Position numbers and translations under genes: made by a program. The notes beneath the pieces were generated by a model that saw only the letters and a program-made list of their open reading frames with translations, made no database searches and was not told where the DNA came from. DNA of 64,000 nucleotides from Alphaproteobacteria bacterium (GTDB taxonomy: Bacteria > Pseudomonadota > Alphaproteobacteria > UBA2966). Positions within the stretch are counted from its first letter, which is position 1. The number at the start of each line of letters is the position of its first letter. Positions 40,536 to 55,754 of the stretch are shown in pieces. Location: the NCBI GenBank assembly GCA_018654745.1, contig JABILA010000006.1, positions 18,598 through 82,597 of the forward strand, written 5' to 3'.

Positions 40536-40553
40536 CTTTCGATCCTTTAGAAT

Positions 40554-41576: not shown

Positions 41577-42526
41577 GCGAAGCTCCAACCTGTCAGAGCC
41601 AAAACCATAATCAGCCATGCGGAAACGGTAATGCGGATGGCCCGCGATAAGGATTGATTATTTGTATCACCACCCGTCCCGAACCACGCCCCATCGACAA
41701 CCAGATTATCGGGGTAAGTGCGTGGCCCCCCAAGGCGCACATCAAGGGCTCCTGCCATGGCGGCTTCGGGCCAGCCCGCGTTGGGTGAAGCGTGTAACCT
41801 GGCTTGTTGCCAGGCCGTTGAAAGCGCCTGTCTGCCGCGCCCCGGAACAATCGCAGCACCCGCAAACAAAATTGCTGTCAGTCGTGCAGGCACCAGGTTC
41901 ATCACATCATCCAGACGTGCCGCAGCCCAGCCAAAGTACAAATAGCGATCGTTGCGATGACCGATCATGCTGTCGGCTGTATTGACCATTTTATAAACCA
42001 GAAGTCCGGGTAATCCGGCCACCAGAAACCAGAAAGCCGGTGCGGTCACGCCATCTGAAAAGTTCTCGGCCAGGCTTTCAATCGCGGCCCGGCTAATCGC
42101 GGCTTCATCCAGTTGATCCGTCTCACGCCCTATGATTTTGCCAACAGCGGTGCGCGCCGGGTCAAGGTCGGAAGTTTTTTCCAGGGCCACCCGCACCTCT
42201 TCGACATGGTCATAGAGACTGCGGGCAGCCATCAGTATGGCGACGATCACAACGAGGATCAGTGCGCCCGCTTCCAATTGCGACAAGGCAAGTTCAATTC
42301 CAAGGCCGATCAGGGTCATGACTAAAATGGCAGCAACAATAACGACGATACCACCCATTCGCCTGGCGTCAGGCTGCCAGTCGGTCCGGTTCAACCAGCG
42401 TTCCCCCGTCATCAGGAAACCAGACATCAGAACAACCGGGTGCGGCAGCTTCTGATAGATCCACTTTGGCTCCCCCGCCAGGGCATCCAGGCCAAGGGCC
42501 AGAGCCAAAATGAGACTTACGCTCAT
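41573..42526 (-). CDS. cobD: adenosylcobinamide-phosphate synthase (CobD/CbiB)
   Basis: Membrane protein of 317 aa. CbiB-type N-terminus (LILALALGLDALAGEP). Confidence 0.85.
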   Translation of the reverse strand: MSVSLILALALGLDALAGEPKWIYQKLPHPVVLMSGFLMTGERWLNRTDWQPDARRMGGIVVIVAAILVMTLIGLGIELALSQLEAGALILVVIVAILMAARSLYDHVEEVRVALEKTSDLDPARTAVGKIIGRETDQLDEAAISRAAIESLAENFSDGVTAPAFWFLVAGLPGLLVYKMVNTADSMIGHRNDRYLYFGWAAARLDDVMNLVPARLTAILFAGAAIVPGRGRQALSTAWQQARLHASPNAGWPEAAMAGALDVRLGGPRTYPDNLVVDGAWFGTGGDTNNQSLSRAIRITVSAWLIMVLALTGWSFA

Positions 42527-43989
42527 GACGACATGGCCTTGTACAACGCGTCGATATCAAGGTGCTGTTCCATGGCCTCAGCCAGCACATCCAGAGCCTC
42601 GTCTACGCGGTGCCCATATCTGGTTTGATGTTGTACGCCGCCGCGAAACGGGGCCAGATATCGCGCCCGAAACAGATCATCGCTGAACAATCCGTGCATA
42701 TATCCGCCTGCAACAGTGCCATCCGCCGAGCAAGCGCCGGGGCTGCGGCCATCGACTTGCAGGAAGGGCCGTTGATCGACATCGGGTCCAACCGTCAGCC
42801 CCACATGGATTTCGTATCCTGTGGCAGAACAATCAAAGGTCGGACAATGGGCGGTTGTCTGTTGAACTGTTTTCCCGGGCTTCATGGTTGTTGAGACATC
42901 GAGCAAACCAAGCCCATTGATTGACATCGGCGCGCCATCCACTCCATCCGGGTCGTCTATACGATGGCCCAGCATTTGATAGCCGCCACAAATGCCCAAT
43001 ACGTGACCGCCGCGTCGATTGTGGGCAAGCAAGTCAATGTCCCAGCCTTGTTCGCGCATGAAACCCATATCAGCAGTCGTCGATTTTGTGCCTGGGATCA
43101 TGACAATTCGCGCCTCGGCGGGTAGTGGCTGGCCGGGCGGAATAAAGCGGACGGTCACATCGGGTTCCGCTTGCAACGGGTCGACATCATCGAAGTTCGC
43201 GATCCGTGACAGCATGGGAACAGCAACAAGAATATCGTTTTGCCCGGTGGCCTGACTTTGTTCCAGAACAACCGCGTCTTCTGCTGGCAGTTCGCGGACG
43301 GCAGGGACATGAGGCAACACACCAAACGATGGCCACGCCGTTCGGTCTTCAATCGCCTTCAAACCTTCATCAAACAGGCTGAGGTCACCGCGAAATTTGT
43401 TGATCAAAAAACCGCAAATCAGTTTTTGTTCTTCCGGTGCCAGCAAGGATCCTGTGCCCACGAGCGAGGCAATCACACCGCCACGATCAATATCCCCGAT
43501 CAAAACAACTGGCGTATTGGTCGCGGTCGCAAACCCCATATTGGCAATATCCCCTGCCCTGAGGTTAATTTCCGCAGGACTTCCCGCCCCTTCGACCAGG
43601 ACAATATCTGCCCGGTTTTTTAGAATTTCAAAACTCTCGATGACAGTTTCTAGCAAAGCCTGACGATGGGAGCGATAATATTCCGCGCCGACAGTGTCGG
43701 TCACTTTGCCGCGCACAACGACTTGAGATCCGACATCTGATTGCGGCTTTAATAATACCGGGTTCATATGAACATCTGGCTCGACCTTGCAGGCAACGGC
43801 TTGCAAAGCCTGGGCGCGACCAATTTCGCCGCCGTCTGGCGTTACGGCAGCATTATTGGACATGTTCTGGGGCTTGAAAGGCAATACCTTATGGCTCCTG
43901 TTCAGAAATACCCTGCACAGCCCGGCCACAATCACGGATTTGCCGACATCCGACCCTGTACCCTGAAACATCAAGGTTCTGGCGGTCAT
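42523..43989 (-). CDS. cobQ: cobyric acid synthase
   Basis: 488 aa. N-terminal ATPase (FQGTGSDVGKS) plus a C-terminal glutamine amidotransferase (ICGGYQMLG). Confidence 0.9.
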   Translation of the reverse strand: MTARTLMFQGTGSDVGKSVIVAGLCRVFLNRSHKVLPFKPQNMSNNAAVTPDGGEIGRAQALQAVACKVEPDVHMNPVLLKPQSDVGSQVVVRGKVTDTVGAEYYRSHRQALLETVIESFEILKNRADIVLVEGAGSPAEINLRAGDIANMGFATATNTPVVLIGDIDRGGVIASLVGTGSLLAPEEQKLICGFLINKFRGDLSLFDEGLKAIEDRTAWPSFGVLPHVPAVRELPAEDAVVLEQSQATGQNDILVAVPMLSRIANFDDVDPLQAEPDVTVRFIPPGQPLPAEARIVMIPGTKSTTADMGFMREQGWDIDLLAHNRRGGHVLGICGGYQMLGHRIDDPDGVDGAPMSINGLGLLDVSTTMKPGKTVQQTTAHCPTFDCSATGYEIHVGLTVGPDVDQRPFLQVDGRSPGACSADGTVAGGYMHGLFSDDLFRARYLAPFRGGVQHQTRYGHRVDEALDVLAEAMEQHLDIDALYKAMSS

Positions 43990-44786
43990 GACGAGCCTGG
44001 CAGAACCGTCCTGTCTGATCGATCAATCAGGGTCAGGAAAGATGTTCCGTTATGTTCGGTCCTTGCCATGCGGACACCATAAGCCTGGTCCAGCCGCTGA
44101 TCGGTAAAGACTTCGTCCGGTGTGCCTTTGGCCAAAACATCGCCGTCATGCAAAAGGAATATCCTGTCGCAGTAACGTTGCGCCAGAGACAGATCGTGAA
44201 GCACAATTACGATGCCATGATCCTGTTGCGCCATCTCGGCAAGAATATCGAGAACCTGCAGCTGGTGGTATGGATCAAGTGCAGCAACCGGTTCATCCGC
44301 CAGTAAATAAGGTGCGCCAACCGCGATGGCCCGCGCCAGCAAGGCACGCGCTTTCTCACCACCCGACAATGTCGTCGCGATGCGGTGGCGAAGCCCGATC
44401 ATGTCGGTTACCTCAAGGGCGTGTTCAACCACATCCATATCAGCCTGTGTCGGTTTGCTCCAGGGGGCAAGGTGTGGTGTACGTCCGATCCCCACCAGTC
44501 TTTCCACCGGTAACATCCAGTGCATCTCGGCCCCTTGCGGCGCATAAGCGACTTTGCTGGCGATCTGGCGCGGCGTCATCTCTGACGTTGGCTGTCCATC
44601 GATGACAACATTTCCTGTCGGGCTTTTAATAATGCCGAGGACCGAACGCAACAAACTGCTTTTGCCCGACCCGTTCGCACCGACCAGGCCGACAAAGCTG
44701 CCGCGCTCGACCGAGAAGGATACATTTTCGAGCACCTTGTTATCGCCAAAGGTGACGCTGATATCGTTCGCTTCAAGCTTGCTCAC
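43986..44786 (-). CDS. btuD: ABC transporter ATP-binding protein, iron-siderophore/cobalamin (FecE/BtuD) type
   Basis: GTG start at 44786 with GGGAGA RBS and a GTGA overlap with the permease stop. The ORF-track N-terminal extension to 45050 overlaps the permease gene and is rejected. Walker A GANGSGKSS, signature LSGGE. Confidence 0.8.
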   Translation of the reverse strand: MSKLEANDISVTFGDNKVLENVSFSVERGSFVGLVGANGSGKSSLLRSVLGIIKSPTGNVVIDGQPTSEMTPRQIASKVAYAPQGAEMHWMLPVERLVGIGRTPHLAPWSKPTQADMDVVEHALEVTDMIGLRHRIATTLSGGEKARALLARAIAVGAPYLLADEPVAALDPYHQLQVLDILAEMAQQDHGIVIVLHDLSLAQRYCDRIFLLHDGDVLAKGTPDEVFTDQRLDQAYGVRMARTEHNGTSFLTLIDRSDRTVLPGSS

Positions 44787-45799
44787 CGGATTGTCTCCCG
44801 TGCGCGATATATGATGTAGAGAAATACTGGCGCGCCAATGAAAGCCGTCAAAACGCCCAACCGCAACTGGGTGTGTCCCAAGGGCAAGCGTGTGGCGATG
44901 TCTGCAAGGGTCAATAATATCGCACCACCGATGGCACTTGGCAGCAAAATGTTGCGGGGTTCCGATCCGAAAATCGCCCGCATGATATGGGGGACCACAA
45001 GTCCGATAAAGGCGATTGAGCCGCAGACAGCGACAGACGCGCCAACACACAAGGCTGTACCCAGAACAATCGTCCAGCGCATGCGGTTAATCTTGACGCC
45101 CAGCGAATGCGCCGCATCTTCCCCCAGGGCCAGGGCATTTAATCCTTGACCAACAGTTGCCAGTAACGCCCAGCCAACCAGCACAAATGGCAACATCATC
45201 ATCAAATCTTCGGTGGTCCGGTTCTCAAGTGAGCCCAACAGCCAGAACACCATGTCCCGCAGGGACATAGGGGTCGGCGCAAAATTCATCACCAGCGAGA
45301 TACAGCCCGTTGCAAGCGAACTTATGCCAATGCCCGAGAGGATCAGGGTCAGAACCCGGCCGTCCCTAGATGCCAGTGCAAACAGCATGACAATTGCAAT
45401 AAAGGAAGTTCCCATGGCCATAACCGGTATGGCGTAAATCCACATGGCGGAAAGACCAAGGTAAATAGCTGTTACAGCCCCGAGCCCGGCACTGGCCGAA
45501 ACGCCAATGATGCCAGGGTCCGCCAGAGGATTGCGCAACAAGCCTTGTAGTGCGGCACCGGACAATCCCAGGGATGCTCCGGCACACAGGCCAATCAGGA
45601 CGCGGGGTAGTCTGAGTTCCTGAACAATCGTCGTCAGGGCAATATCGGCACTGCCAAATAATCCGGCGATAACCTCACCGCTTTGCAACGGGGCCTGGCC
45701 AAAAAACAGTGAACCAAACGCACAGGCCAGAAGCAACATGAAAGCTGCAGGCAATCGAAAATGTAGCCACACCGGGTTTGTCGCCTGGGCCTGGATCAC
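44783..45799 (-). CDS. btuC: FecCD-family ABC permease (BtuC-like)
   Basis: 338-aa multi-TM protein with the FecCD family pattern. Confidence 0.85.
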   Translation of the reverse strand: MIQAQATNPVWLHFRLPAAFMLLLACAFGSLFFGQAPLQSGEVIAGLFGSADIALTTIVQELRLPRVLIGLCAGASLGLSGAALQGLLRNPLADPGIIGVSASAGLGAVTAIYLGLSAMWIYAIPVMAMGTSFIAIVMLFALASRDGRVLTLILSGIGISSLATGCISLVMNFAPTPMSLRDMVFWLLGSLENRTTEDLMMMLPFVLVGWALLATVGQGLNALALGEDAAHSLGVKINRMRWTIVLGTALCVGASVAVCGSIAFIGLVVPHIMRAIFGSEPRNILLPSAIGGAILLTLADIATRLPLGHTQLRLGVLTAFIGAPVFLYIIYRARETIR

Positions 45800-46677
45800 G
45801 AGGACTTCCCCCTGGATTGTTGCGCGGCTTTGATCGCGTTGAGCTTGTCGACAACAAATTCTGCCGCGTCAACAAACGTAAAGGCCCGGCACGCCAACAA
45901 TCGACCCGGCACGAATATAGTCGGAATGTCCTTGAACATGCGTTTGACCACGGGATGGCGAAGCAGGCCCCAGTCAGAATGATGCACCGCTTTGCTGTCA
46001 AAAAAAGCGCCGATGATTACATCAGGCGGATCGACGATTAATGCTTCCAGTGGCAGGGTCCGCCAACCTTTCAGTCCCATGTCCGCAACCGCATTTCGCA
46101 TACCGGCCAGTCTGATAACTTCATCACCAAATGTCCCGGCGGCAGCCGTTGTGCCTCCCGCGGATAAATATATGGCGCGAAGTTTGCCCGTGCTGGACTG
46201 CTGTAGTTTTTGCAATCTGGCTTTGTAGACCTTGATGAATTCCTCACCAGCCTTTTCCCGCCCAAAGACCTTGGAAAACATCGCTACATTCTGGAAAACA
46301 TCATCGGTCTTCAGACCGGTTCTGGCTGAAACAACCTTTATGCCTGCCTGCTTCAGGTACGATCGCATACTGGCATTACCGCCCCAGTAGCGGATGACGA
46401 CATCAGGCTGCACATAAAGAAATTCTTCAATGCTGCCGGTTGTTCTTGGCAGCCCTTTGGCCCTGGATTTGTAGAAGGAATAATCCTGAATGGCCCGGTG
46501 CGACAGTGACGCAATTTGACTTCTGTCCGCCAGAGCCAATGCATATTGGTCCGAACAGTGATCCAGCGAGGAAATCCGTGGTAGCGCGTCCTGTGCCCGT
46601 GCAGGTTCCGCAACTAGTACAAAGGCGGTTGCCATCAATGCCGCCATCTGAATTCCCAAAGAGAAATCTATTTTCAC
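45796..46677 (-). CDS. btuF: periplasmic substrate-binding protein of the cobalamin/iron-siderophore ABC type (BtuF-like)
   Basis: Signal peptide plus a class III SBP body. Lies between cobB and btuC in a riboswitch-controlled operon. Confidence 0.75.
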   Translation of the reverse strand: MKIDFSLGIQMAALMATAFVLVAEPARAQDALPRISSLDHCSDQYALALADRSQIASLSHRAIQDYSFYKSRAKGLPRTTGSIEEFLYVQPDVVIRYWGGNASMRSYLKQAGIKVVSARTGLKTDDVFQNVAMFSKVFGREKAGEEFIKVYKARLQKLQQSSTGKLRAIYLSAGGTTAAAGTFGDEVIRLAGMRNAVADMGLKGWRTLPLEALIVDPPDVIIGAFFDSKAVHHSDWGLLRHPVVKRMFKDIPTIFVPGRLLACRAFTFVDAAEFVVDKLNAIKAAQQSRGKSS

Positions 46678-48020
46678 CCAAGTACTCCGTTGTTCTTGCC
46701 GCTTTTGAATATATCAGCAATCGCTGCAGGACAGGAGGGGAAATAGAAATGCACGTAACTGGCAACAAGGTTACCTACTGAATAGATCGCTTCACCTGGT
46801 TTGTTCAGTCGAACGGAAGTGGCACGTGCAACTGATTCAAGCGGTGTTTCCAGGGAGGAATAATGAAAGGTATGTCCGCGCAAAACACCGCTGGACATCG
46901 CCAGAGACTGTGCGCCAATTGCCGACAGTTTCGAATTGAGCTTGCCATGCCCAGGCAAAAGGCCTGCCATCTCCGCTTTTTTTCCGTCGACGCCTTCCAG
47001 AATATCCAGCAAATACAACAGGCCACCACATTCAGCCAAAATCGGGGTACCGGCTTCGTGTGCTGCCTTCATCGCAATTTTCATGGCAAGGTTTTGAGCC
47101 AGCTGATCCAGATGTAATTCCGGGTATCCACCAGGCAACCAGATCGCATCGCATTCCGGCAGCGTAATATCATTCAATGGTGAAAAGAATTTAACCTCCG
47201 CGCCCATGGCTTTGAGGCAACGAATGTTCGCAGCATAGGCAAATGAAAAGGCAGCATCATTTGCACAGGCAATGGTCATGCCCTCCAGATGTTGATCTAC
47301 AACATTCGGCTCACCGGAAACAAATTCGATTTCCTGCGGCAATTCGGCAAGCCGGGTCCCTTCGATCTGTTCAGCCAGGCGATCCAGCCGAACGTCCAGG
47401 TCTGAAATCTCGGCAGCCTGGAACAGACCAAGATGGCGGTCAGGCAGAACGGCTTCATTATCTCGCAGCATATGACCAAGATAGGGCACACCATCCGTTA
47501 GTGTTTCCGAAAGCATATCTGCATGCCCTGGACTGCCAACCTTGTTCGCCATAACACCGGCAAATGCCAATTCAGGATCATAGGTCGTAAATCCATGCAC
47601 AATCGCGCCAAAGCTTTGTGCCATGCCGCTGGCATCAACGGTCAACAAAACAGGCAGACCAAATTTCTTTGCAAGATCAGCACTGCTGGGGCTGCCGTCA
47701 TAAAGACCCATCACGCCTTCCACCAGGATCAGATCTGACTGGCTTGCAGCATCAGCCAATAGGGTCTGACAGGTCTCTTCGCCAACCATCCACAGATCAA
47801 GTTGCTCAACTCCGGCGCCACTTGCTTTTTCGAGGATCGTGGGATCGATAAAATCCGGCCCTGTCTTGAAGACCCGGACCCGCCGCCCCTGGTTGCGGTG
47901 GTATCGGGCCAGGGCAGCGGTGACCGTCGTTTTCCCCTGATTGGATGCAGGTGCCGCAACCATCATCGCCGGGCAACTTGCCCGGCGATCCGTTGAAGCT
48001 TCTTGAGCAGTCACTGACAT
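46674..48020 (-). CDS. cobB: cobyrinic/hydrogenobyrinic acid a,c-diamide synthase (CobB/CbiA)
   Basis: 448 aa. N-terminal ATPase (APASNQGKTTVTAAL) plus a C-terminal GATase domain. Confidence 0.85.
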   Translation of the reverse strand: MSVTAQEASTDRRASCPAMMVAAPASNQGKTTVTAALARYHRNQGRRVRVFKTGPDFIDPTILEKASGAGVEQLDLWMVGEETCQTLLADAASQSDLILVEGVMGLYDGSPSSADLAKKFGLPVLLTVDASGMAQSFGAIVHGFTTYDPELAFAGVMANKVGSPGHADMLSETLTDGVPYLGHMLRDNEAVLPDRHLGLFQAAEISDLDVRLDRLAEQIEGTRLAELPQEIEFVSGEPNVVDQHLEGMTIACANDAAFSFAYAANIRCLKAMGAEVKFFSPLNDITLPECDAIWLPGGYPELHLDQLAQNLAMKIAMKAAHEAGTPILAECGGLLYLLDILEGVDGKKAEMAGLLPGHGKLNSKLSAIGAQSLAMSSGVLRGHTFHYSSLETPLESVARATSVRLNKPGEAIYSVGNLVASYVHFYFPSCPAAIADIFKSGKNNGVLG

Positions 48021-48022
48021 CG

Positions 48023-49882
48023 TTAGTCCGCGTCTGGAACGTAGCGCAATCTGAGGAAATAATTGCGCTCGTCCTGGTTAAAGAATGAGGCCGTTTGATA
48101 GTCTTCGTCGAAGATATTGTTGGCACTCAATTCGACACTCCAATTGGGCTTGATCGCATAGGCACCGCGAAGATCAACCGTTTTGTAAGCGTCCAGCTTC
48201 CGGCTGTTGCTGGCGTTATCATACGCCACACCTGCATAACGCAATGTTGCACCGGCCTTGAAGTCATCAATTTGTCGACTGACCGTCACATTCGTTTGCC
48301 ATTTGGGCCGTCGTGTCAGCTGGTTATCTCGATTGGATCCGTCTGCGCGATTTTTGGCATCAATATAATTGGCGTTGCCATTTATATCCCACTTGGCCCA
48401 TGTCATGCGACCTTCAGCTTCGACGCCCCGAATGCGGGCTGAATTGATGTTGCCGGCCAATGATGTGTCTGAATCAAACGCGATCAGGTCTTTGACGTTT
48501 GTCTGGTAGGCGTAAACCGCCCAGGTACCAAGGCTTTGTGTACCGCGTACACCAACTTCATAGGACCTGGATTCTTCCGGCCTGTTTGAGGTCGAGCCGA
48601 AACCCGGAAAATACAATTCATTGAACGTTGGTGCATTATAGGCTGTGCCATAGCTCGCCAACACTTCCAGATCAGGCCGTATGTTATAGCCCCAGGCAAG
48701 ACTTCCTGTGTAATGATTGCCAAATTGCTCGTTATCGTCACCGCGCAAACTGAGCTGCGTATTGTGATCGCCAAATTCACCTATGTACTGACCAAATGCA
48801 CCATAGTTGTACCGCTCGGTCTCTGCATAGGACGTGGTGCTGTCGACTTTATCGTTCAGATAGTCCACGCCAACAACAACCGTATCCGTGTCGGAGACGC
48901 TGACGTTGTTTTGCCAACTGACATTGTCCCGCACGGTATTAAACTTTGAGGAAAAGGCACCGTTAAAATAGTTACTGCCCAAATCCCAGCTGCGCGCAGC
49001 TGTAACCTTGATGTCCCAGATGTCGTTGATACCTTTATCGGCATTTACACCCAGCAGGCGCTGTTTGTCCTTCGAGGAATTCTGTGAACTGCCATCAAAT
49101 TCCGTTGTATCGTTGGCAACCTGAGCCAGCAGTTCCAGCTCAAAATCATTTTCGAATTCATGCGATACGCTGCCCGAAAACGATCGTTGTTTATAGCCAT
49201 CCTTGTCCGTTTCGATAACACGACATCCGCTGGCAGGTTTGGTCTGACCATCGCCACAACTGTTGAACCCGTCCGAACGACGAAAGCCAACATTGGCGGC
49301 GAATTGGGTCTTGCCGGAACTGCCGGTTATGCCTGTATTGGCTTCTACAGTGTTGTGACTGCCATAACCGATGGAGCCGGAATGTCTGGTTTTTTTGCTG
49401 CCCTTGCGGGTGAATATCTGAACAACACCGCCAATGGCACTTGATCCATAAAGATGCGACCGCGGGCCCCGAACGATCTCGATACGTTCAATCTGGTCAA
49501 CCGGGATGTGCTGAAGTGAAACCTGACCGGACGTTGCCGATCCGACACGAGCGCCATCAATAAGGACCAGAACGTGATTGTTTTCAGAACCACGCAGGGA
49601 AATTGTTGTGGATTTACCAAGGCCACCACTGTTGACCATCGATATACCTGGTAAATCCCGTACCAGATCCTGAATATCCTTGGGCTGCTTTTCTTCGATC
49701 GCTTCACGGGTGATGACGGTCACCGGTGACAAACTTTCATCAACGGTTTGGGCGATCCTGGAACCGGTTACAATGATTTCCTTGTTCGCGGAAATGTCTG
49801 CCGCCTGGGCAGCTAATGGCAGGACCATGGAACCGGCAACAATTACCAGTTTCCAGCCCAGGCCTTGGGTCGAAATCTTCAT
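48023..49882 (-). CDS. btuB: TonB-dependent outer-membrane receptor, vitamin B12/corrinoid type (BtuB-like)
   Basis: Signal peptide, TonB box (EIIVTGSR), plug domain and a C-terminal aromatic residue (F) after the 22-strand barrel region. Directly downstream of a B12 riboswitch. Confidence 0.85.
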   Translation of the reverse strand: MKISTQGLGWKLVIVAGSMVLPLAAQAADISANKEIIVTGSRIAQTVDESLSPVTVITREAIEEKQPKDIQDLVRDLPGISMVNSGGLGKSTTISLRGSENNHVLVLIDGARVGSATSGQVSLQHIPVDQIERIEIVRGPRSHLYGSSAIGGVVQIFTRKGSKKTRHSGSIGYGSHNTVEANTGITGSSGKTQFAANVGFRRSDGFNSCGDGQTKPASGCRVIETDKDGYKQRSFSGSVSHEFENDFELELLAQVANDTTEFDGSSQNSSKDKQRLLGVNADKGINDIWDIKVTAARSWDLGSNYFNGAFSSKFNTVRDNVSWQNNVSVSDTDTVVVGVDYLNDKVDSTTSYAETERYNYGAFGQYIGEFGDHNTQLSLRGDDNEQFGNHYTGSLAWGYNIRPDLEVLASYGTAYNAPTFNELYFPGFGSTSNRPEESRSYEVGVRGTQSLGTWAVYAYQTNVKDLIAFDSDTSLAGNINSARIRGVEAEGRMTWAKWDINGNANYIDAKNRADGSNRDNQLTRRPKWQTNVTVSRQIDDFKAGATLRYAGVAYDNASNSRKLDAYKTVDLRGAYAIKPNWSVELSANNIFDEDYQTASFFNQDERNYFLRLRYVPDAD

Positions 49883-50004
49883 GAAGATACTCCGTTCGTT
49901 CGCCTTGAATGGCGTTAATTACGAACGGCGATGTCAGGGGTGTCAGGGATGCGGTCAAAAAACCATATCATTCCTGCCGAGCCGCCCCACGCAGCGCCGC
50001 AATG

Positions 50005-50235
50005 AAATACGTTTGGCCGGTCTCCGGACTTGCGAGGTAACCAGAACACTTGCTCTGATAATTGAACCGCACCTTCCCATGACAAATATTCAGTCACAGT
50101 GGTCGTCTTGCGGCCCATACAATCGCTTACCGTTGCGGGGGCAGTGCTGGAATTGCGGACCGTATCAAGTGGTCAACTCACCAGCTTCCCGTTTATCGCC
50201 GTACTTACGAAAGCATCGACGATCACCAAAAGTAG
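50005..50235 (-). promoter_or_regulatory. cobalamin riboswitch (minus strand) controlling the btuB...cobO operon
   Basis: Minus-strand sequence ...AACGGGAAGCTGGTGAGTTGACCACTTGATACGGTCCGCAATTCCAGCACTGCCCCCGCAACGGTAAGC...AGTCCGGAGACCGGCC. Near-consensus B12 box. Confidence 0.8.
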
Positions 50236-50237
50236 AG

Positions 50238-50272
50238 GCAGTATTTAGAGAACTTGCCCTGATATTGTCAAG
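50238..50272 (-). promoter_or_regulatory. candidate sigma70 promoter for the minus-strand riboswitch/btuB operon
   Basis: Minus strand TTGACA-18 nt-TAAATA, immediately upstream of the riboswitch aptamer. Confidence 0.3.
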
Positions 50273-50317
50273 CGCCATCACAACTGCCCTGGAATGAAAC
50301 CAATTGACGAAAATATC

Positions 50318-50485
50318 CTTTGGCACTAGAACCGATGAGTTCATTGGTGCTGGCATATCGGCTGAGCAAGACGATGCCAGATAATCGGGAAGCGGGTTCA
50401 AGTCCCGCGCTACCCACGTAACGGTGAGGAATTTGTGCCACGAGGCACAGTTTCACAGTCCGGAACCGGCCATTGAAATTTGATC
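50318..50485 (+). promoter_or_regulatory. cobalamin riboswitch (plus strand) controlling the cobN-like/exbB-like/DUF2149 operon
   Basis: ...AATCGGGAAGCGGGTTCAAGTCCCGCGCTACCCACGTAACGGTGAGG...AGTCCGGAACCGGCC. Variant B12 box. Divergent from the minus-strand riboswitch. Confidence 0.7.
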
Positions 50486-50641
50486 TCAAACAAGGTGCGT
50501 TGGGCGCCAGAGGATTCTGATGAATTGTTTTTCTGACTGCTATTCCGCATCAACGCCAAAGCTGGCGTTACGGATTTGTGCGTCAATCAAGCTGCATCTG
50601 TCGTCTGACTGCTTGTCCACTTCAATGGAAGTAACACAGCA

Positions 50642-53600
50642 ATGTCAAAAACGGGATGGCTTGCAGGCCTGATCTCAATATTTCTGATCACTGCGACAGC
50701 CAATGCAAAAGAACGCATATTTGGCGTCGTCTCTGATCGTTCTGCAGCCGAACTTGCTTCGGGTGCCGCACTATTTCTGACGCAACAGCCGAATTTTTCA
50801 ATCGCCCTGAGAACACCAACACAATTTTCGGGCATGAGCGATGCCGACATTGTAAAAGAGATTAAATCTGCTGATGCCGTCTTCAGTGGCGCTGTTTTTG
50901 GCGATCAGGTCAGCCGACTTATGCGCCTTGTCAAACAGGCTGGCAAACAAAGACCCTTTCTCGGCATCAATTCAGATCATCGCCTTGTTCGCCTCTCCCA
51001 GGATCAAAAAGGGATGCTGTTTTCTGGTGTCTCCAGCAGTGATATCCGCGAACTGGCCAAGGGGCCGAGGGAGGCCGAAAGTTATCTGGCATGGCATGAA
51101 CGCCGCCGCACAGCCAATCCCCGTCAGGCAACATGGATTGACGCAAAATCCTATTGGCAGGCAAGGGGTCGCAACAACCTGGCGTCATTTTTTGCTGTCA
51201 TTGCGCGTGCCATCAAACCAGGTGTTGCCCCTGGAAAGCTTGTTCCCCGGGCCGATGTCAGAACCTGGTTTGATGGCCGTATGGTCGAAAATCCGGGGAA
51301 GCTATTGCCTGTGAAGAAGCCATGGATTGCGATCATTGACCACGATACCGGGGATCGCAGCGGCGATATCGACACAACGGAACAGCTTTGCAAAAAGGCA
51401 AATGATGCAGCATTGAATTGCGTTGCCTTTTTTGCCCGTTGGGGTGCGGCAAGTGGTGAAGCCTTGCTGATGATTGAAAAATTGGCAAAAACCAGCCCCC
51501 TGCAAGGCGTTGTGTCCTTGCAGGACTTTGTCATTGGCGGTGGCGACGCGCGTGCAACTGCACTTGAGACAATCGAACGTCTGGATGTGCCTGTGATCAA
51601 GGGAATTCGGCTTACCGAGGCGACCGAAGATGCATGGGCTTTTTCTACGGATGGCCTGCCCTGGAAGTCCGTTCACTACAGGGTATCAATGCCCGAACTT
51701 CAGGGCGTTAGCCAACCCATCGTCATGGCAGCGGCAACTCCGGTTAATATTGATCCTGTTACCGGCGTTCGTCTTGTCTCGACGATGCCGATTGATGAGC
51801 AGATTTCTTTGGCAATAGACAGATTGGCCGCCTGGCAGCGATTGGGGGCAACGCCGAACAAGGACAAGAAGGTCGCCATTGTTTATTACAATCACCCTCC
51901 GGGTCGCCACAACATTGGTGCCGACAATCTGGATGTACCGGCGTCCCTGTTCGAGATTCTGAACCGCCTCAAAGCTGCCGGATACAATACCGGCCTCTTG
52001 CCAAAATCATCAAAGGACTTGCTCGATCTTATCCAGGACCGGGGTGTGAACCTGCCTGAGGATCGTGCCGCGATTGCGGATATGTCGAACAGGGTCGTGC
52101 GCGTATCTACTCCTGAATATCGCTCCTGGTTTGAGAAATTACCAAAAATATTACAGGCAGAAATGGCGGGTGGACCGTTGTCATTTCTGGCGGCACGCGT
52201 CAGTGACGCGCTTGAAAAACAACAATTGCAGGCTGCCCGTAAACTGATAGATCGAATAACTGCCGATGTCAGACATGTGCTGGATGGTGCAGATCACCCG
52301 GCGAAAAAGCGCGCCATCAATCTGCTGGAACAATTGAATACGGCATACGACGTCTGGCATGAAAACCCGGCTCTGCCTTCTGCGAAGCAGAAAGCCATGA
52401 AATTAACCCGGGCGCTCATCAAGACAGGTATCGAAGGCCTGCGCGGCTGGGGAGAAGCCCCGGGTGAGATCATGACCTACAAGGGTGACATCCTTTTGCC
52501 GGGAATCACATTTGGCAATGTGTTCATTGGCCCCCAACCCCCACGTGGTTGGGAGCTTAACGAGGAATTGCTTCACGCCAACATGAGCTTTCCGCCGCCG
52601 CACCAATATATGGCCTTCTATTTCTGGCTGAAATATGCCCACAAGGCGGACGCCATTGTTCATCTTGGTCGACATTCGACCTATGAATTTTTACCACGGA
52701 GAAGCGTTGGCGTGGGACCTGCGGACTATTCCTGGCACATCGCCTCAACCATTCCCGGAATTTATCCCTACATCGTCGACGGTGTCGGTGAGGGTATTCA
52801 GGCCAAAAGACGCGGCCTGGAAGTCATGATCGACCACCTGACGCCGCCCCTGAGCGCAACGCCCTTGTACGACGAATTGCTTGAGTTGCGCCAACTAATT
52901 GAAACCTATGAGGCCGCCAATGGGGAAGGTCAGTCCTCCGTTCGAACCAGATCCCTGGACGCGATGCGTTTGAAGATCGATGCCCTCAATTTGAAGGAGG
53001 AACTTTCAGCTTCCATGGATGCTGAACTGAAAATTCGGGGCATAACCTTTGATCAGGCGGATGGGGAGTTTCTGGTGCATGAGGTCGGGCACTATTTGAC
53101 CAAACTGCAAGAAGATTTTATGCCGCTGGGTCTTCACGTATTTGGCCGCGACTGGAGCGACAAGGCAGTCAACGTCATGTTGGACTCCATGCTGCAGGGT
53201 GATCAGAAGAAATCTGGCGAATCCGATCTCTGGAGAGCCAACCTAAAAAAATCTCCTGCTGCGGAAATCAAATCCCTGCTGCAAGCGCTGGAGGGAAAAT
53301 TTGTATCACCCGGCAAGGGAAATGATCCCATTCGAACTCCGGAGTCCTTGCCCACCGGTCGCAATTTCTTTGCCCTTGATGGCTCGGTACTACCAACCCG
53401 TCTGGGTCATGCTCTTGGCGTCGAACTGGCAACCAAATCCGATACAGGTTCGCGTAATACCGAAGATGGTCGGGAAGCGATAATTTTGTGGGCATCCGAT
53501 ACGGTCCGGGACGAAGGCGCCATGATTGCCTTTGGCTTACAATTGCTGGGCGTTGAGCCCCAATGGAACAGTCGCGGTATCGTCCGGGGTGTAAAACGCA

Positions 53601-55003
53601 TGGCGCTGAAAGACGAACAAGTTCGTAAAGATACAGTTTTCATAACATCCGGGTTGTTTCGTGATCTTTACGGTCAGCAACTGGCGCTGTTGGATAATGC
53701 TGTATTGCTGGCCCTCGATGGTGCGTCGCAAACAATCCGGAATACTTACCCGAAACTCGGACCCGCCCTTGATGCAGCCCTGGATCCCCTGGGCACATCG
53801 GTTTCAAACGGCGGTGAAAATCTCACACAGAACGAAGTTGCAGCCCACTGGGTTAAGGATGCACTTGCCGAATTGCAAGCCGGCGTTGATGCAGCGAAGG
53901 CTGGCAGGCAAGCAGGCATGCGTATCTTCGGAACCGCCCCTGGCAGCTATGGCGCAGGTGTGAACCGGTTGGTTGAACGCTCCGGTGCCTGGGAAGACCG
54001 CAAGGAACTGGGTGCCGCCTATATCAAGCGCATGGGACATGCCTATGGTATGAATCGACAAGGTGTTGCGTCGCAGGAAACCTTCAAACGAAATCTGGCG
54101 CGAGTGGAAAATACCTACCTGGGACGCGGCAGTAATCTCTATGGTTTCATCGATAACAATGACGCCTTCGACTATCTAGGCGGCCTCAGTCTCGCCGTTG
54201 AAACCCTGACCGGATCAGCGCCCAATAATCGCGTCATTCATCATGCAGACCCAAACAACGCGTCCATGGAACCTTTGACGTCGGCCTTGTTGGCTGAATT
54301 GCGCGGTCGGTTCCTGAATCCGGAGTGGCTAAAGCCCCTGATGAAACACGACTATGCCGGGGCCCGAACCATGGGATCGGAATTTATGGAATATCTGTGG
54401 GGCTGGCAGGTGACCAATCCCGACATCATCACCAGTCGGGTCTGGGACGATGTCAAAGATGTCTATCTGGATGACAAATACGGCCTTGGCCTGGACGAGT
54501 TTCTAGAGTCAGGACAGAACATTCACGTCAAAACCAACATGATGGCAATTATGTTGGTATCGGCACAAAAAGGATTCTGGACACCGGACGAAAAGACACT
54601 TGATGATTTGTCAAAAGAGTTCGTCGAAAAGATTTTGGAAAACGGTTTACCCGGAAGTGGTCACACCACACCGGATCATCCCATGTTCAAATGGATCACC
54701 CCCCGCCTTGATGTAGCGACGGCAAAAGCATTGGAAGAACTATTGGATTCTGCCCGTTTACCAATGCCGGAAGTGACGCCAACGATTACCACTGTTCAGG
54801 AAGTTGAAGTTACAGAAATCGAACCCCAACCTCGCGAGCCTGAAGAACCCAAATCCCGCAACCCCGAACAAGGTGACCCCGAAGAAGTGCTGGAGGCTGA
54901 CATCCCCGACTATGGCATCTGGCTACTGCTCCTGATGTCGGGCGTTCTTGTTTTTGGCGTCGTCAATGGCCGCCGTTCTATTCGCCGTGGAGGCATCAAA
55001 TGA
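50642..55003 (+). CDS. CobN/Mg-chelatase-like large protein with N-terminal signal peptide and C-terminal membrane anchor (HmuS-like periplasmic (de)chelatase candidate)
   Basis: 1453 aa. Signal peptide MSKTGWLAGLISIFLITATANA. CobN-family blocks (e.g. PTGRNFFALDGSVLPTRLGHALG...LQLLGVEPQWN). C-terminal TM helix (GIWLLLLMSGVLVFGVV). Preceded by a B12 riboswitch. Confidence 0.8.
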   Translation: MSKTGWLAGLISIFLITATANAKERIFGVVSDRSAAELASGAALFLTQQPNFSIALRTPTQFSGMSDADIVKEIKSADAVFSGAVFGDQVSRLMRLVKQAGKQRPFLGINSDHRLVRLSQDQKGMLFSGVSSSDIRELAKGPREAESYLAWHERRRTANPRQATWIDAKSYWQARGRNNLASFFAVIARAIKPGVAPGKLVPRADVRTWFDGRMVENPGKLLPVKKPWIAIIDHDTGDRSGDIDTTEQLCKKANDAALNCVAFFARWGAASGEALLMIEKLAKTSPLQGVVSLQDFVIGGGDARATALETIERLDVPVIKGIRLTEATEDAWAFSTDGLPWKSVHYRVSMPELQGVSQPIVMAAATPVNIDPVTGVRLVSTMPIDEQISLAIDRLAAWQRLGATPNKDKKVAIVYYNHPPGRHNIGADNLDVPASLFEILNRLKAAGYNTGLLPKSSKDLLDLIQDRGVNLPEDRAAIADMSNRVVRVSTPEYRSWFEKLPKILQAEMAGGPLSFLAARVSDALEKQQLQAARKLIDRITADVRHVLDGADHPAKKRAINLLEQLNTAYDVWHENPALPSAKQKAMKLTRALIKTGIEGLRGWGEAPGEIMTYKGDILLPGITFGNVFIGPQPPRGWELNEELLHANMSFPPPHQYMAFYFWLKYAHKADAIVHLGRHSTYEFLPRRSVGVGPADYSWHIASTIPGIYPYIVDGVGEGIQAKRRGLEVMIDHLTPPLSATPLYDELLELRQLIETYEAANGEGQSSVRTRSLDAMRLKIDALNLKEELSASMDAELKIRGITFDQADGEFLVHEVGHYLTKLQEDFMPLGLHVFGRDWSDKAVNVMLDSMLQGDQKKSGESDLWRANLKKSPAAEIKSLLQALEGKFVSPGKGNDPIRTPESLPTGRNFFALDGSVLPTRLGHALGVELATKSDTGSRNTEDGREAIILWASDTVRDEGAMIAFGLQLLGVEPQWNSRGIVRGVKRMALKDEQVRKDTVFITSGLFRDLYGQQLALLDNAVLLALDGASQTIRNTYPKLGPALDAALDPLGTSVSNGGENLTQNEVAAHWVKDALAELQAGVDAAKAGRQAGMRIFGTAPGSYGAGVNRLVERSGAWEDRKELGAAYIKRMGHAYGMNRQGVASQETFKRNLARVENTYLGRGSNLYGFIDNNDAFDYLGGLSLAVETLTGSAPNNRVIHHADPNNASMEPLTSALLAELRGRFLNPEWLKPLMKHDYAGARTMGSEFMEYLWGWQVTNPDIITSRVWDDVKDVYLDDKYGLGLDEFLESGQNIHVKTNMMAIMLVSAQKGFWTPDEKTLDDLSKEFVEKILENGLPGSGHTTPDHPMFKWITPRLDVATAKALEELLDSARLPMPEVTPTITTVQEVEVTEIEPQPREPEEPKSRNPEQGDPEEVLEADIPDYGIWLLLLMSGVLVFGVVNGRRSIRRGGIK

Positions 55004-55458
55004 GCATTTACACATCTGCCATGTTCCTGACAGGCGCGACACACAGTTTTGTCGGCTGGTTGCTTTATCCCGTCATTGCCGCCCTGATCGTGCTGGTCAC
55101 AATGTCCCTGTTTGAAATCGGCACATCAATCGGTGAACGTTTCTGGGGCCTGAAAGAGATGCGCAAGCAAAGCCTGGATCTTGTCCAGGCACATGGCCGT
55201 CGCCGCATTGAACGAGCCGATCTTCTGGCCCGCATCGCACCAATGTTGGGCTTGATGGGAACCTTGATTCCATTGGGACCGGGGTTAGCCGGTCTCGGCC
55301 AGGGTGATCTTGGTGCCCTGACGGATGCGATCATGATCGCCTTCGACACTACTGTTCTTGGTCTGTTGGCGGGTGCCATCGGATTTGCCATTGGTCGCTT
55401 GCGGCGACGTTGGTACGACGAGTTGATGGACCTGATGGAAAACGGAGAAACACTATGA
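55000..55458 (+). CDS. MotA/TolQ/ExbB-family proton-channel protein (short form)
   Basis: ATGA overlap with the cobN-like stop. 152 aa with three TM segments and the MotA/ExbB C-terminal pattern (LGLMGTLIPLGPGLAGLG). Confidence 0.7.
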   Translation: MSIYTSAMFLTGATHSFVGWLLYPVIAALIVLVTMSLFEIGTSIGERFWGLKEMRKQSLDLVQAHGRRRIERADLLARIAPMLGLMGTLIPLGPGLAGLGQGDLGALTDAIMIAFDTTVLGLLAGAIGFAIGRLRRRWYDELMDLMENGETL

Positions 55459-55754
55459 CCGCGCGGAAGTGGCGATCCAGCCGGTTCACCGCACAGGATG
55501 ACGAACCCCTTGGTCCCCTCGCCAACCTTGTTGATATCATGCTGGTGTTCGCCTGCGGATTAATCGCGGCATTGTTTGCGCTCAGTCCTGATCTGGCGAA
55601 AAACCTGTCGCAAAAATCTGTAACAATCAGCGAAGGTCGCGAATTACCCGAGTTGCCTGAAGGATATGGCAAGGGTGGCGCAGGCCTGACACCGCTGGGA
55701 CAGGTCTATCGCGATCCAAAAACCGGCAAGCTTATTTTGATCGGACAGGAATAG
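55455..55754 (+). CDS. small DUF2149-like membrane protein (ExbD-like partner)
   Basis: Start moved to Met 55455 (ATGA overlap, GGAGAAA RBS). About 99 aa with a single TM segment (LANLVDIMLVFACGLIAALFAL). This family typically accompanies CobN-like + MotA/ExbB genes. Confidence 0.5.
   Translation: MTARKWRSSRFTAQDDEPLGPLANLVDIMLVFACGLIAALFALSPDLAKNLSQKSVTISEGRELPELPEGYGKGGAGLTPLGQVYRDPKTGKLILIGQE

What the first reader, a model, noticed from the sequence alone, without database searches (positions are those of the whole stretch)
50005..50485. Back-to-back divergent cobalamin riboswitches sharing one about 480-bp control region
Two cobalamin aptamers lie head-to-head on opposite strands. The minus-strand copy carries a near-consensus B12 box (GCACTGCCCCCGCAACGGTAAGC) and governs a 9-gene translationally coupled operon (btuB-cobB-btuF-btuC-btuD-cobQ-cobD-cobC-cobO). 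The plus-strand copy carries a variant box (GCGCTACCCACGTAACGGTGA) and governs the CobN-like operon. A third riboswitch (36570-36710) governs cobU-cobT-cobS. The window therefore contains a compact B12-responsive regulon covering uptake, late amidation, nucleotide-loop assembly and the unusual chelatase-like system. The divergent arrangement implies tight co-repression of both operons by AdoCbl.
Basis: seen in the sequence. Interest (0 to 1): 0.6.

Follow-up and report, generated by a model that had tools for sequence, protein, structure and literature searches.

The report
Two back-to-back vitamin B12 riboswitches
Two genuine vitamin-B12-sensing RNA switches sit back to back and each controls its own B12-related operon, but this is an ordinary kind of regulation, and the head-to-head layout most likely arose when a gene cassette carrying its own switch was inserted next to an existing one.

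Summary
Rfam RF00174 finds cobalamin riboswitch aptamers at 49998-50245 (-, 97.8 bits), 50328-50488 (+, 62.3 bits) and 36558-36709 (+, 56.8 bits); the family threshold is 31.5 bits.

Each aptamer has its own promoter of one shared type (TTGAC-N17/18-CTARAW). That motif occurs only at these three places in the window. The two divergent -35 boxes lie 32 bp apart, and the predicted starts are near 50236 (-) and 50337 (+).

Each aptamer is followed by a short hairpin (P13) whose loop complements that aptamer's own C-rich loop L5, with a compensatory C-G to A-U change between copies. Neither leader has an intrinsic terminator, so translational OFF switches are most likely.

The pair is not a conserved unit. 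Relatives have cobC-like gene, riboswitch, btuB operon, all in one direction. Here a cobN-like/exbB-like/DUF2149-like cassette with its own promoter and riboswitch lies inverted between them.

The two aptamers also differ. The btuB copy is class Cbl-I. The cobN-like and cobU copies keep the P2 arm but lack the long P6 extension, so equal AdoCbl co-repression is unproven.

Verdict: an ordinary new member of a known kind.

The parts
49998..50245 (-). Cobalamin riboswitch aptamer of class Cbl-I (P2 arm, long P6 extension with the GCCACUG-type motif, and an extra hairpin inserted in L4 at 50158-50174). It leads the btuB operon.
   Evidence: RF00174, 97.8 bits. Orthologous aptamers of 243-251 nt lie upstream of btuB in L065 and L066. 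The P2, P4 and L4-insert helices show compensatory changes.
50328..50488 (+). Cobalamin riboswitch aptamer with a P2 arm but a truncated P6 extension (a 19-nt hairpin replaces 59 model positions). L5 is CCCAC. The B12 box has a 1-nt deletion. It leads the cobN-like operon.
   Evidence: RF00174, 62.3 bits. The only population variant is one A>G change at 50430, in the short P6 hairpin.
50243..50271 (-). Predicted promoter of the btuB transcript: -35 TTGACA (50271->50266), 17-nt spacer, -10 CTAAAT (50248->50243). Predicted start near 50236, about 4 nt before P1.
   Evidence: TTGAC-N18-CTAAAT occurs only twice in the 64 kb window (0.01 expected), both times just upstream of a riboswitch. CTTGACA is invariant at the same position in L065 and L066. 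The standard sigma-70 scan missed it.
50304..50331 (+). Predicted promoter of the cobN-like transcript: -35 TTGACG (50304-50309), 16-nt spacer, -10 CTAGAA (50326-50331). Predicted start near 50337, about 4 nt before P1.
   Evidence: It is the only additional match in the window to the relaxed pattern TTGACN{17,18}CTARAW (3 found, 0.16 expected). That pattern was chosen post hoc.
49981..49995 (-). P13/L13 hairpin of the btuB riboswitch: GCUGC-GUGGG-GCGGC. Its G-rich loop complements L5 CCCCC (50141->50137).
   Evidence: Read directly from the sequence. RNAalifold pairs the L5 core with this segment. It lies inside a block that is invariant in L065 and L066.
50494..50508 (+). P13/L13 hairpin of the cobN-like riboswitch: GGUGC-GUUGG-GCGCC. 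The loop bases UGG plus the closing G complement L5 CCCA (50413-50416). The hairpin ends 1 nt before the SD of the upstream ORF.
   Evidence: Predicted hairpin. The L5 C->A change is matched by an L13 G->U change relative to the btuB copy.
49892..49928 (-). Hairpin at the btuB ribosome-binding site: CCGUUCGU...ACGAACGG. It pairs the first two G of the SD GGAG (49893->49890). The start codon is ATG at 49882.
   Evidence: Fold of 49870-49935: -17.6 kcal/mol, z = -2.05. Stems are invariant and loops variable in L065 and L066.
50520..50672 (+). Candidate 50-codon upstream ORF. Its SD is GAGGA at 50510-50514 and its ATG is at 50520. It reads through the cobN RBS hairpin and stops 28 nt past the cobN-like ATG. 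It contains an in-frame direct repeat (50532-50553 and 50604-50625).
   Evidence: ORF list, repeat search, position next to P13. No peptide conserved with it was found in 21 relatives whose leaders were read, so it is an inference only.
50606..50647 (+). Hairpin that buries the weak cobN-like SD (GGAAG, 50627-50631) and the ATG (50642).
   Evidence: Fold of 50600-50655: -14.8 kcal/mol, z = -2.1. Unpaired probabilities in the stem are near 0.
39912..49882 (-). Nine-gene operon: btuB, cobB, btuF, btuC, btuD, cobQ, cbiB, threonine-phosphate decarboxylase, cobO.
   Evidence: Pfam and NCBIfam. Junctions of -4 to +18 nt. The same order is found in L065, L066 and the contig carrying P0138.
50642..55754 (+). 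Three-gene operon: a periplasmic CobN-like protein (1453 aa, signal peptide plus C-terminal TM helix), an ExbB/MotA-like protein and a DUF2149-like protein.
   Evidence: Pfam and NCBIfam, PDB sequence search, 71% identity of the third gene to the L062 DUF2149-like protein. The same trio occurs in L062 and L063.
36532..36730 (+). Third control unit: promoter TTGACT-17-CTAAAT (36532-36560), aptamer 36558-36709 (P2 arm, 9-nt stub in place of the P6 extension, L5 CCCAC at 36646-36650) and P13 UCGCGC-GAUGG-GUGCGA (36714-36730). It precedes cobU-cobT-cobS-ORF235 (36820-39885).
   Evidence: RF00174, 56.8 bits; promoter motif; sequence; genes.

Best explanation
The region holds two independent, cis-acting cobalamin riboswitches that are transcribed away from each other. 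Each has its own sigma-70-type promoter. The -35 boxes are 32 bp apart and the predicted starts are about 100 bp apart.

Each RNA senses a corrinoid with its aptamer. Ligand binding is expected to lock the C-rich loop L5 onto the G-rich loop of a small hairpin (P13) that lies just 3' of the aptamer. This in turn keeps the downstream ribosome-binding site closed. Translation of the first ORF falls, and the tightly packed downstream genes follow through translational coupling and polarity.

- For btuB, the closed element is a conserved hairpin that pairs half of the SD.
- For the cobN-like operon, P13 abuts the SD of a 50-codon upstream ORF. Translation of that ORF would be needed to open the hairpin that buries the cobN-like SD and ATG.

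The back-to-back layout is a historical by-product. A cobN-like/exbB-like/DUF2149-like cassette that carried its own promoter and riboswitch was inserted, inverted, between a cobC-like phosphatase gene and the resident btuB promoter.

Shown: the aptamers, the gene content, the shared promoter motif, L5-L13 complementarity with a compensatory change, conservation of the btuB leader, and synteny in relatives. Inferred: the transcription starts, the translational mechanism, the role of the upstream ORF, and the identity of the ligand.
For: - Three RF00174 matches at 2-3 times the gathering score.
- Operon content and junctions.
- The promoter motif TTGAC-N18-CTAAAT is found only upstream of two riboswitches (0.01 expected). 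The relaxed form is found only upstream of all three (0.16 expected).
- The -35 CTTGACA is invariant in the btuB leaders of L065 and L066, although BtuB itself is only 56% identical.
- The L5/L13 pairs are CCCCC/GUGGG-G, CCCAC/GUUGG-G and CCCAC/GAUGG-G in the three copies. The C-G pair of the first is replaced by A-U in the other two.
- Relatives also have G-rich hairpin loops in the same place.
- The L5-L13 kissing loop is common to all cobalamin riboswitch classes (PMC7367189).
- Neither leader has an intrinsic terminator on the relevant strand.
- The RBS hairpins fold with z about -2, and the btuB hairpin has invariant stems and variable loops.
- Synteny: His_Phos_1, riboswitch and btuB operon are co-directional in three relatives. 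The window's His_Phos_1 is 52% identical and its cobB 65% identical to those of L066, whereas cobB is only 36% identical to the one linked to cobN-like in L063.
- 41 of 52 cobN-like homologue loci carry a same-strand riboswitch-like match upstream. A back-to-back pair occurs only in the window's own population.
Against: - No experiment or transcript data were available. The transcription starts and the promoters are consensus-based, and the relaxed motif was defined post hoc.
- The standard sigma-70 scan did not report these promoters, because their -10 boxes are non-canonical.
- Thermodynamic models of the ligand-bound and ligand-free states do not show the btuB RBS hairpin opening. The link between P13 and that RBS, about 75 nt downstream, is therefore unresolved.
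- Hairpin z-scores are modest.
- The upstream ORF has no comparative support, and the closest cobN-like relatives lack a comparable leader.
- GC content shows no sign of a recent insertion.
- Rho-dependent termination cannot be excluded.
Confidence: 0.8

Rival explanations
1. The two aptamers form one shared control region, and the divergent arrangement itself is a selected feature that enforces tight, equal co-repression of both operons by adenosylcobalamin.
For: Both leaders carry RF00174 aptamers. The two -35 boxes are only 32 bp apart, so the RNA polymerase footprints could overlap. The two operons are functionally related.
Against: The pairing is absent from 58 other loci and from the closest btuB-operon relatives. 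Each unit has a complete promoter, aptamer, P13 and RBS of its own. The aptamers differ in the P6 extension, which in Cbl-I forms the adenosyl pocket (PMC7367189). Riboswitches act after initiation and in cis, so proximity adds nothing to co-regulation.
Confidence: 0.12
2. The two switches are tuned to different corrinoid forms. The Cbl-I copy is AdoCbl-specific. The copies with a truncated P6 (cobN-like and cobU) respond more broadly, for example to OHCbl, MeCbl or incomplete corrinoids. The uptake/amidation operon and the periplasmic chelatase-like system would then be regulated differentially.
For: The plus and cobU copies keep P2 but lack P7-P11. The B. subtilis yvrC riboswitch has the same architecture and binds AdoCbl, OHCbl and MeCbl in vitro (PMC7367189). 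The two M. tuberculosis B12 riboswitches show different isoform preferences (PMC11260477).
Against: Architecture alone does not predict selectivity reliably. The yvrC riboswitch responds to AdoCbl in vivo. No binding data exist for these RNAs.
Confidence: 0.3
3. Control is mainly transcriptional. Ligand binding causes premature termination, Rho-dependent or otherwise, rather than a block of translation initiation.
For: The leaders are long (115 and 153 nt after the aptamers). Both M. tuberculosis B12 leaders show premature termination in addition to translational control (PMC11260477, outline). A translation block usually exposes Rho loading sites.
Against: Neither leader has an intrinsic-terminator-like site on the correct strand. 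SD-containing hairpins are present at all three first ORFs. From general knowledge, proteobacterial B12 riboswitches typically use RBS sequestration.
Confidence: 0.2
4. The plus-strand aptamer is a decaying, non-functional relic that was carried in with the cassette.
For: Its score is lower (62 bits). It has a variant L5 (CCCAC), a 1-nt deletion in the B12 box and no P6 extension.
Against: Its score is about twice the gathering threshold. P1, P2 and P3-P6 are intact. Its L13 carries the base that compensates for the L5 variant. The independent cobU copy has the same variant features. Short forms also precede cobN-like genes in Cellvibrionaceae loci L008 and L042. The sequence is identical across six metagenome assemblies except for one G-U-compatible SNP.
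Confidence: 0.04

Closest known systems
E. coli / Salmonella btuB adenosylcobalamin riboswitch (Cbl-I, Rfam RF00174)
   Same: It lies in the leader of the TonB-dependent B12 receptor gene. It has the full Cbl-I architecture (P2 arm, P6 extension, B12 box). It has an L5-L13 kissing-loop partner and an RBS hairpin, and it has no intrinsic terminator. AdoCbl represses translation in E. coli (PMC3050690).
   Different: Here it heads a nine-gene uptake and late-biosynthesis operon rather than btuB-murI. It has an extra covarying hairpin in L4. Its promoter sits back to back with that of a second riboswitch. There are no experimental data.
B. subtilis yvrC 'atypical' cobalamin riboswitch (PMC7367189)
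   Same: It combines a P2 arm with only a small hairpin in place of the P7-P11 extension. The plus-strand and cobU copies have this combination.
   Different: The host is a Firmicute, and the platform is said in that paper to comprise P13-P14 stem-loops. Ligand promiscuity has been shown only for yvrC. Sequence-level relatedness was not tested here.
M. tuberculosis ppe2 B12 riboswitch with a translated upstream ORF (PMC11260477)
   Same: The riboswitch controls a short translated leader ORF, and translation of that ORF is required for expression of the downstream gene. In the window, P13 abuts the SD of a 50-codon upstream ORF that runs through the cobN-like RBS hairpin.
   Different: In M. 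tuberculosis this was demonstrated and works by termination-reinitiation. Here the upstream ORF is only predicted, overlaps the cobN-like start by 31 nt and has no comparative support.
B12-element-regulated CobN-like 'BtuS' genes and the Bacteroides HmuS heme de-chelatase (PMC6460266, PMC12583661)
   Same: The regulated gene encodes a protein of more than 1400 aa from the class-I chelatase superfamily. It has terminal membrane or signal segments and ExbB-type partners, like HmuS. 41 of 52 homologue loci are preceded by a cobalamin riboswitch-like element.
   Different: The window protein is equally distant from HmuS (342 bits), CobN (322 bits) and ChlH (321 bits). It falls below every NCBIfam CobN/BchH cut-off. 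Its substrate and direction of reaction are unknown.

Membership tests
Cobalamin riboswitch (Rfam RF00174) | Covariance-model score at or above the gathering threshold over the full model | tested here: met
   97.8, 62.3 and 56.8 bits against a threshold of 31.5 bits, model positions 1-189 in all three.
Cobalamin riboswitch (Rfam RF00174) | Conserved core: P1, the P3-P6 four-way junction, the GGGAA junction, a C-rich L5 and a 3' B12 box | tested here: met
   The cmscan alignments show all helices with few non-canonical pairs. There are 26 invariant columns shared with nine riboswitches from other genomes.
Cobalamin riboswitch (Rfam RF00174) | An L5-L13 kissing loop linking the aptamer to the expression platform | tested here: met
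   A hairpin lies 3-6 nt after each aptamer, and its loop complements that copy's L5. The C-G pair of the btuB copy is replaced by A-U in the other two. This rests on complementarity only; formation was not shown.
Cobalamin riboswitch (Rfam RF00174) | Position in the 5' leader of B12 transport, biosynthesis or B12-independent isozyme genes | tested here: met
   The three aptamers lie upstream of btuB, cobN-like and cobU.
Cobalamin riboswitch (Rfam RF00174) | Direct binding of a corrinoid and ligand-dependent change in gene expression | not testable with these tools
   This needs in-line probing or ITC, and reporter assays.
Class Cbl-I (AdoCbl-selective) | A P2 loop-stem-loop arm together with a long P6 extension (P7-P11) that folds back onto the core | tested here: met
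   This applies to the minus-strand (btuB) copy only. It has a 6-bp P2 and a complete extension with the CCACUG...GGGAAGG motifs. The class definition is from PMC7367189.
Class Cbl-I (AdoCbl-selective) | The same feature, tested for the plus-strand (cobN-like) and cobU copies | tested here: not met
   P2 is present, but 59 and 62 model positions of the extension are replaced by 19 and 9 nt.
Class Cbl-IIa/IIb | No P2 arm (only a short J1/3) together with a short P6 | tested here: not met
   All three copies have a P2 hairpin of at least 6 bp. After clan competition, RF00174 rather than RF01689 or RF01482 was the best match.
yvrC-like hybrid architecture | A P2 arm together with a small hairpin extension of P6 | tested here: met
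   Met structurally by the plus-strand and cobU copies. Promiscuous ligand binding is not testable here.
Cobaltochelatase CobN / Mg-chelatase H (the regulated gene) | A score above the NCBIfam equivalog cut-off | tested here: not met
   The best match is 594 bits against a cut-off of 1619 bits, and all nine models are below their cut-offs. Only the Pfam superfamily domain PF02514 is met.

The most novel reading that the evidence does not exclude
The two head-to-head switches may not be redundant AdoCbl sensors. The Cbl-I copy on the uptake/amidation operon and the P6-truncated, P2-bearing copies on the periplasmic CobN-like (HmuS-architecture) system and on cobUTS could read different corrinoid species. 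The cobN-like copy could act through a riboswitch-gated upstream ORF that must be translated to unmask the cobN-like start. This would give an uncultured marine alphaproteobacterium a two-channel corrinoid-sensing circuit built by cassette capture.
Probability: 0.2. Interest if true: 0.5.

Novelty: new member of a known kind. Interest (0 to 1): 0.25.

Why it matters
The finding mainly serves as clean annotation. It defines three riboswitch-led transcription units, with promoters, kissing-loop partners and RBS elements, in a B12 salvage island of an uncultured alphaproteobacterial MAG. It also shows that a striking-looking 'divergent riboswitch pair' can arise simply by cassette insertion.

The side issues have more value:
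- A naturally co-resident pair of Cbl-I and P6-truncated aptamers could be compared directly for ligand selectivity.
- There is a possible second example of riboswitch-upstream-ORF coupling.
- It adds evidence that a widespread periplasmic CobN/HmuS-like system with ExbB-like and DUF2149-like partners belongs to the B12 regulon.

Tried and rejected
- **Standard promoter and terminator scan.** It found nothing relevant. The promoters emerged only from comparing the three leaders.
- **Whole-leader MFE folds.** These were uninformative, with z-scores from -2.07 to +0.6.
- **Custom covariance model.** I used an nhmmer profile instead, which uses sequence only. Weak hits are therefore unconfirmed.
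- **Kissing-loop assignment.** I first took the GGUG...CC hairpin to be L5 and looked for kissing partners of its loop, without a consistent result. Re-reading the Rfam structure line showed that this hairpin is P4/L4 and that the C-rich loop is L5. The L13 partners were then clear.
- **Other long-range complementarities.** The P2 3' strand against the btuB sequestor (I3) and the promoter region against 50572-50587 (I2) are at the level expected by chance and were dropped.
- **Ligand-bound versus ligand-free constrained folds.** They did not reveal an anti-sequestor.
- **Search for a conserved upstream ORF peptide in 21 relatives.** None was found that matches the window's upstream ORF. L008 and L042 share 'MKRRA.SWAVS', but this overlaps their P13 and may simply reflect RNA conservation.
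- **Population variants.** They are too few for covariation analysis.
- **Literature search for described divergent riboswitch pairs.** It found nothing usable, so how often such pairs occur in genomes in general remains unmeasured.
- **GC profile.** It gave no signal of insertion.
Full report
**1. Observation**

An Rfam 15 scan of the whole window at gathering thresholds returns exactly three matches, all to RF00174.

| Position | Strand | Bits | E-value |
|---|---|---|---|
| 49998-50245 | - | 97.8 | 3.6e-23 |
| 50328-50488 | + | 62.3 | 5e-13 |
| 36558-36709 | + | 56.8 | 2e-11 |

The family threshold is 31.5 bits, and each match covers model positions 1-189. The two divergent aptamers face away from each other with 82 bp between their 5' ends. 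The whole btuB/cobN-like intergenic region is 759 bp (49883-50641).

**2. Genes**

Pfam and NCBIfam confirm the operon content.

- After choosing the starts GTG 44786 for btuD and ATG 41576 for the decarboxylase, the junctions are +2, -4, -4, -4, -4, -4, -4 and +18 nt. 'Translationally coupled' is therefore a fair description.
- Plus strand: a 1453-aa CobN/Mg-chelatase-superfamily protein with a signal peptide and a C-terminal membrane helix. A MotA/ExbB-like protein follows, overlapping by 4 nt. A 99-aa protein then follows, again overlapping by 4 nt. It is 71% identical to a protein of locus L062 that has a faint DUF2149 hit.
- The third riboswitch precedes cobU, cobT, cobS and a 235-aa ORF.
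- No corrin-ring synthesis genes lie elsewhere in the parts of the window I scanned.

The window is identical to contigs of an uncultured MAG (GCA_018672995.1) that NCBI labels 'Alphaproteobacteria bacterium'.

**3. Promoters**

The generic sigma-70 scan found nothing useful. Comparing the three leaders did.

- TTGACA-N17-CTAAAT lies just upstream of the btuB aptamer (50271->50243).
- TTGACT-N17-CTAAAT lies just upstream of the cobU aptamer (36532-36560).
- The spaced motif TTGAC-N18-CTAAAT occurs nowhere else in the 64 kb window on either strand (2 found, 0.01 expected).
- A relaxed form, chosen post hoc, adds only TTGACG-N16-CTAGAA at 50304-50331, just upstream of the cobN-like aptamer (3 found, 0.16 expected).
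- In the btuB leaders of two relatives whose BtuB is only 56% identical, CTTGACA is invariant at the same distance from P1.

I therefore place the starts near 50236 (-), 50337 (+) and 36567 (+), each about 4 nt before P1. The two divergent -35 boxes are separated by 32 bp, so each unit has its own promoter. These are predictions, not mapped starts.

**4. Aptamer types**

All three copies have a P2 arm.

- The btuB copy has the complete P6 extension and is a textbook Cbl-I aptamer. It also has an extra hairpin inserted in L4 (50158-50174). The stem of that hairpin changes by compensatory substitutions in L065 and L066.
- In the cobN-like and cobU copies, 59 and 62 model positions of the extension are replaced by 19 and 9 nt. 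Both also share L5 = CCCAC and a one-base deletion in the B12 box.

According to PMC7367189:
- Cbl-I is defined by P2 plus a long P6 extension that builds the adenosyl pocket.
- Cbl-II lacks P2.
- The B. subtilis yvrC RNA combines P2 with a small P6 hairpin and binds AdoCbl, OHCbl and MeCbl in vitro.

The two short copies have that third architecture. The divergent pair is therefore made of two different aptamer types, and AdoCbl-specific co-repression is an assumption rather than a conclusion.

**5. Expression platforms**

Neither leader has an intrinsic-terminator-like site on the relevant strand. Right after each aptamer sits a GC-rich hairpin with a five-base loop of the form G-N-N-G-G.

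| Copy | P13 hairpin | Position | L5 |
|---|---|---|---|
| btuB | GCUGC-GUGGG-GCGGC | 49995->49981 | CCCCC |
| cobN-like | GGUGC-GUUGG-GCGCC | 50494-50508 | CCCAC |
| cobU | UCGCGC-GAUGG-GUGCGA | 36714-36730 | CCCAC |

The loop, together with the closing G, complements the L5 of the same copy. The fourth L5 base (C, A, A) is matched by the third L13 base (G, U, U), which is a compensatory exchange. RNAalifold on three btuB leaders independently pairs the L5 core with this downstream segment. Relatives also carry hairpins with G-rich loops in the same place. This is the L5-L13 kissing loop that is common to all cobalamin riboswitch classes.

btuB leader:
- The platform is strikingly conserved in L065 and L066. 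A block of about 24 nt directly after the aptamer is invariant, as is CCCUGACACCCCU.
- An RBS hairpin (49928->49892) has invariant stems and variable loops. It pairs the first half of the SD GGAG.
- I could not resolve how P13 communicates with this hairpin.

cobN-like leader:
- P13 ends one base before a good SD (GAGGA, 50510-50514) and the ATG (50520) of a 50-codon ORF.
- That ORF reads through a hairpin (50606-50647; the 56-nt segment 50600-50655 that contains it folds at -14.8 kcal/mol). The hairpin buries the weak cobN-like SD and ATG.
- This resembles the riboswitch-gated upstream ORF that is required for PPE2 expression in M. tuberculosis (PMC11260477).
- The window's upstream ORF has no comparative support. 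I give this sub-model about one chance in three.

**6. Why the aptamers are back to back**

- A profile search over 64 fetched loci (0.93 Mb) finds a same-strand riboswitch-like match upstream in 41 of 52 cobN-like homologue loci: 25 within 1 kb and 16 behind a preceding co-directional gene. Rfam confirmed all nine loci selected for having a B12-box match directly upstream. B12 control of this gene family is therefore general.
- A back-to-back pair occurs only in the window's own population, that is, in six near-identical assemblies.
- The closest btuB-operon relatives have BtuB at 72%, 56% and 56% identity. All have a cobC-like histidine phosphatase gene, then the riboswitch, then the btuB operon, in one direction and with no cobN-like gene nearby.
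- The window's phosphatase gene (55732-56526, minus strand) is orthologous to that of L066 (52%).
- The window's cobB is 65% identical to the L066 cobB at the same operon position. It is only 36% identical to the cobB that precedes cobN-like in L063.
- The cobN-like protein has no relative closer than 58%. Its best named matches are mostly Gammaproteobacteria and Nitrospirales.

The simplest account is that a cassette of about 5.5 kb (about 50272-55754) was inserted in inverse orientation between the phosphatase gene and the btuB promoter. The cassette carried a promoter, a short-type riboswitch, cobN-like, exbB-like and DUF2149-like. Its far end now overlaps the phosphatase stop by 23 nt. GC content does not betray the event, so it is not recent or the donor was similar in composition.

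**7. Verdict**

The interpretation that the arrangement implies tight AdoCbl co-repression from a shared control region is not supported. There are two autonomous cis-acting units of different aptamer architecture, placed side by side by an insertion.

These are standard RF00174 members that any Rfam-based pipeline would annotate, so this is a new member of a known kind and of modest interest. The more interesting open points are the possible difference in selectivity between co-resident Cbl-I and P6-truncated aptamers, the candidate upstream-ORF relay, and the uncharacterised periplasmic CobN/HmuS-like system that the second switch controls.

Noticed in passing
window 50642-55754 (+); loci L001-L055, L062, L063: The 'CobN-like' protein has HmuS-like architecture: 1453 aa, an N-terminal signal peptide and a C-terminal TM helix. 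It is followed by ExbB/MotA-like and DUF2149-like genes. By sequence it is equally distant from HmuS heme de-chelatase (9d26, 342 bits), CobN (9uk9, 322 bits) and ChlH (4zhj, 321 bits), and it is below all NCBIfam CobN/BchH cut-offs. The trio recurs in L062 and L063. 41 of 52 homologue loci have a cobalamin-riboswitch-like element upstream. Its function is unknown; a periplasmic, possibly PMF-linked, cobalt or corrinoid (de)chelatase is one possibility.
   Followed up: partly
window 39178-39885 (+): A 235-aa ORF overlaps the cobS stop by 4 nt. It has no Pfam family and only weak NCBIfam similarity to QueG and to 4Fe-4S subunits (E about 2e-5). Unannotated ORFs of 233-238 aa occupy the equivalent position, next to cobO or cobS, in L065 and in the contig carrying P0138. 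It may be an uncharacterised member of the nucleotide-loop operon.
   Followed up: partly
window 50532-50553 and 50604-50625 (+): A 22-nt direct repeat (82% identical, 72 nt apart) lies in the cobN-like leader. It is in frame in the candidate upstream ORF (SDCYSAS and SDCLSTS). The second copy forms the 5' strand of the hairpin that buries the cobN-like SD and ATG. It is unclear whether the repeat matters at the RNA or the peptide level.
   Followed up: partly
window 50002->49979 and 49945->49933 (-); L065 and L066 btuB leaders: Blocks of the btuB expression platform (UUGCGGCGCUGCGUGGGGCGGCU and CCCUGACACCCCU) are invariant between genomes whose BtuB proteins are only 56% identical. They are therefore far better conserved than the coding sequence. 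The second block contains an L5-like CCCC that could compete for L13.
   Followed up: partly
window 50158-50174 (-); also L008 and L042 riboswitches: An extra hairpin is inserted in loop L4 of the Cbl-I aptamer. Its stem covaries in L065 and L066. Similar L4 insertions occur in short-type riboswitches upstream of cobN-like genes in Cellvibrionaceae.
   Followed up: partly
window 55732-55754: The convergent DUF2149-like gene (+) and the cobC-like histidine phosphatase gene (-) overlap by 23 nt at their 3' ends. This marks the probable distal boundary of the inserted cassette. The phosphatase ORF also overlaps an upstream SAM-methyltransferase ORF (56427-57284).
   Followed up: no
L063 2354-2552, 11106-11269, 15102-15321: A relative whose CobN-like protein is 56% identical carries TBDT-cobB-cobN-like-exbB-like-small ORF as one co-directional operon behind a single riboswitch. 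It has further riboswitches before a second TBDT/PepSY gene pair and before cobO. The module is evidently shuffled between B12 loci.
   Followed up: partly
L008 5392-5530 and L042 5649-5711: In two Cellvibrionaceae loci, the P13 region downstream of the riboswitch encodes a shared peptide start, MKRRA(L/S)SWAVS. The leaders before the cobN-like gene are 340-600 nt long. This may be an upstream ORF or simply conserved RNA.
   Followed up: no
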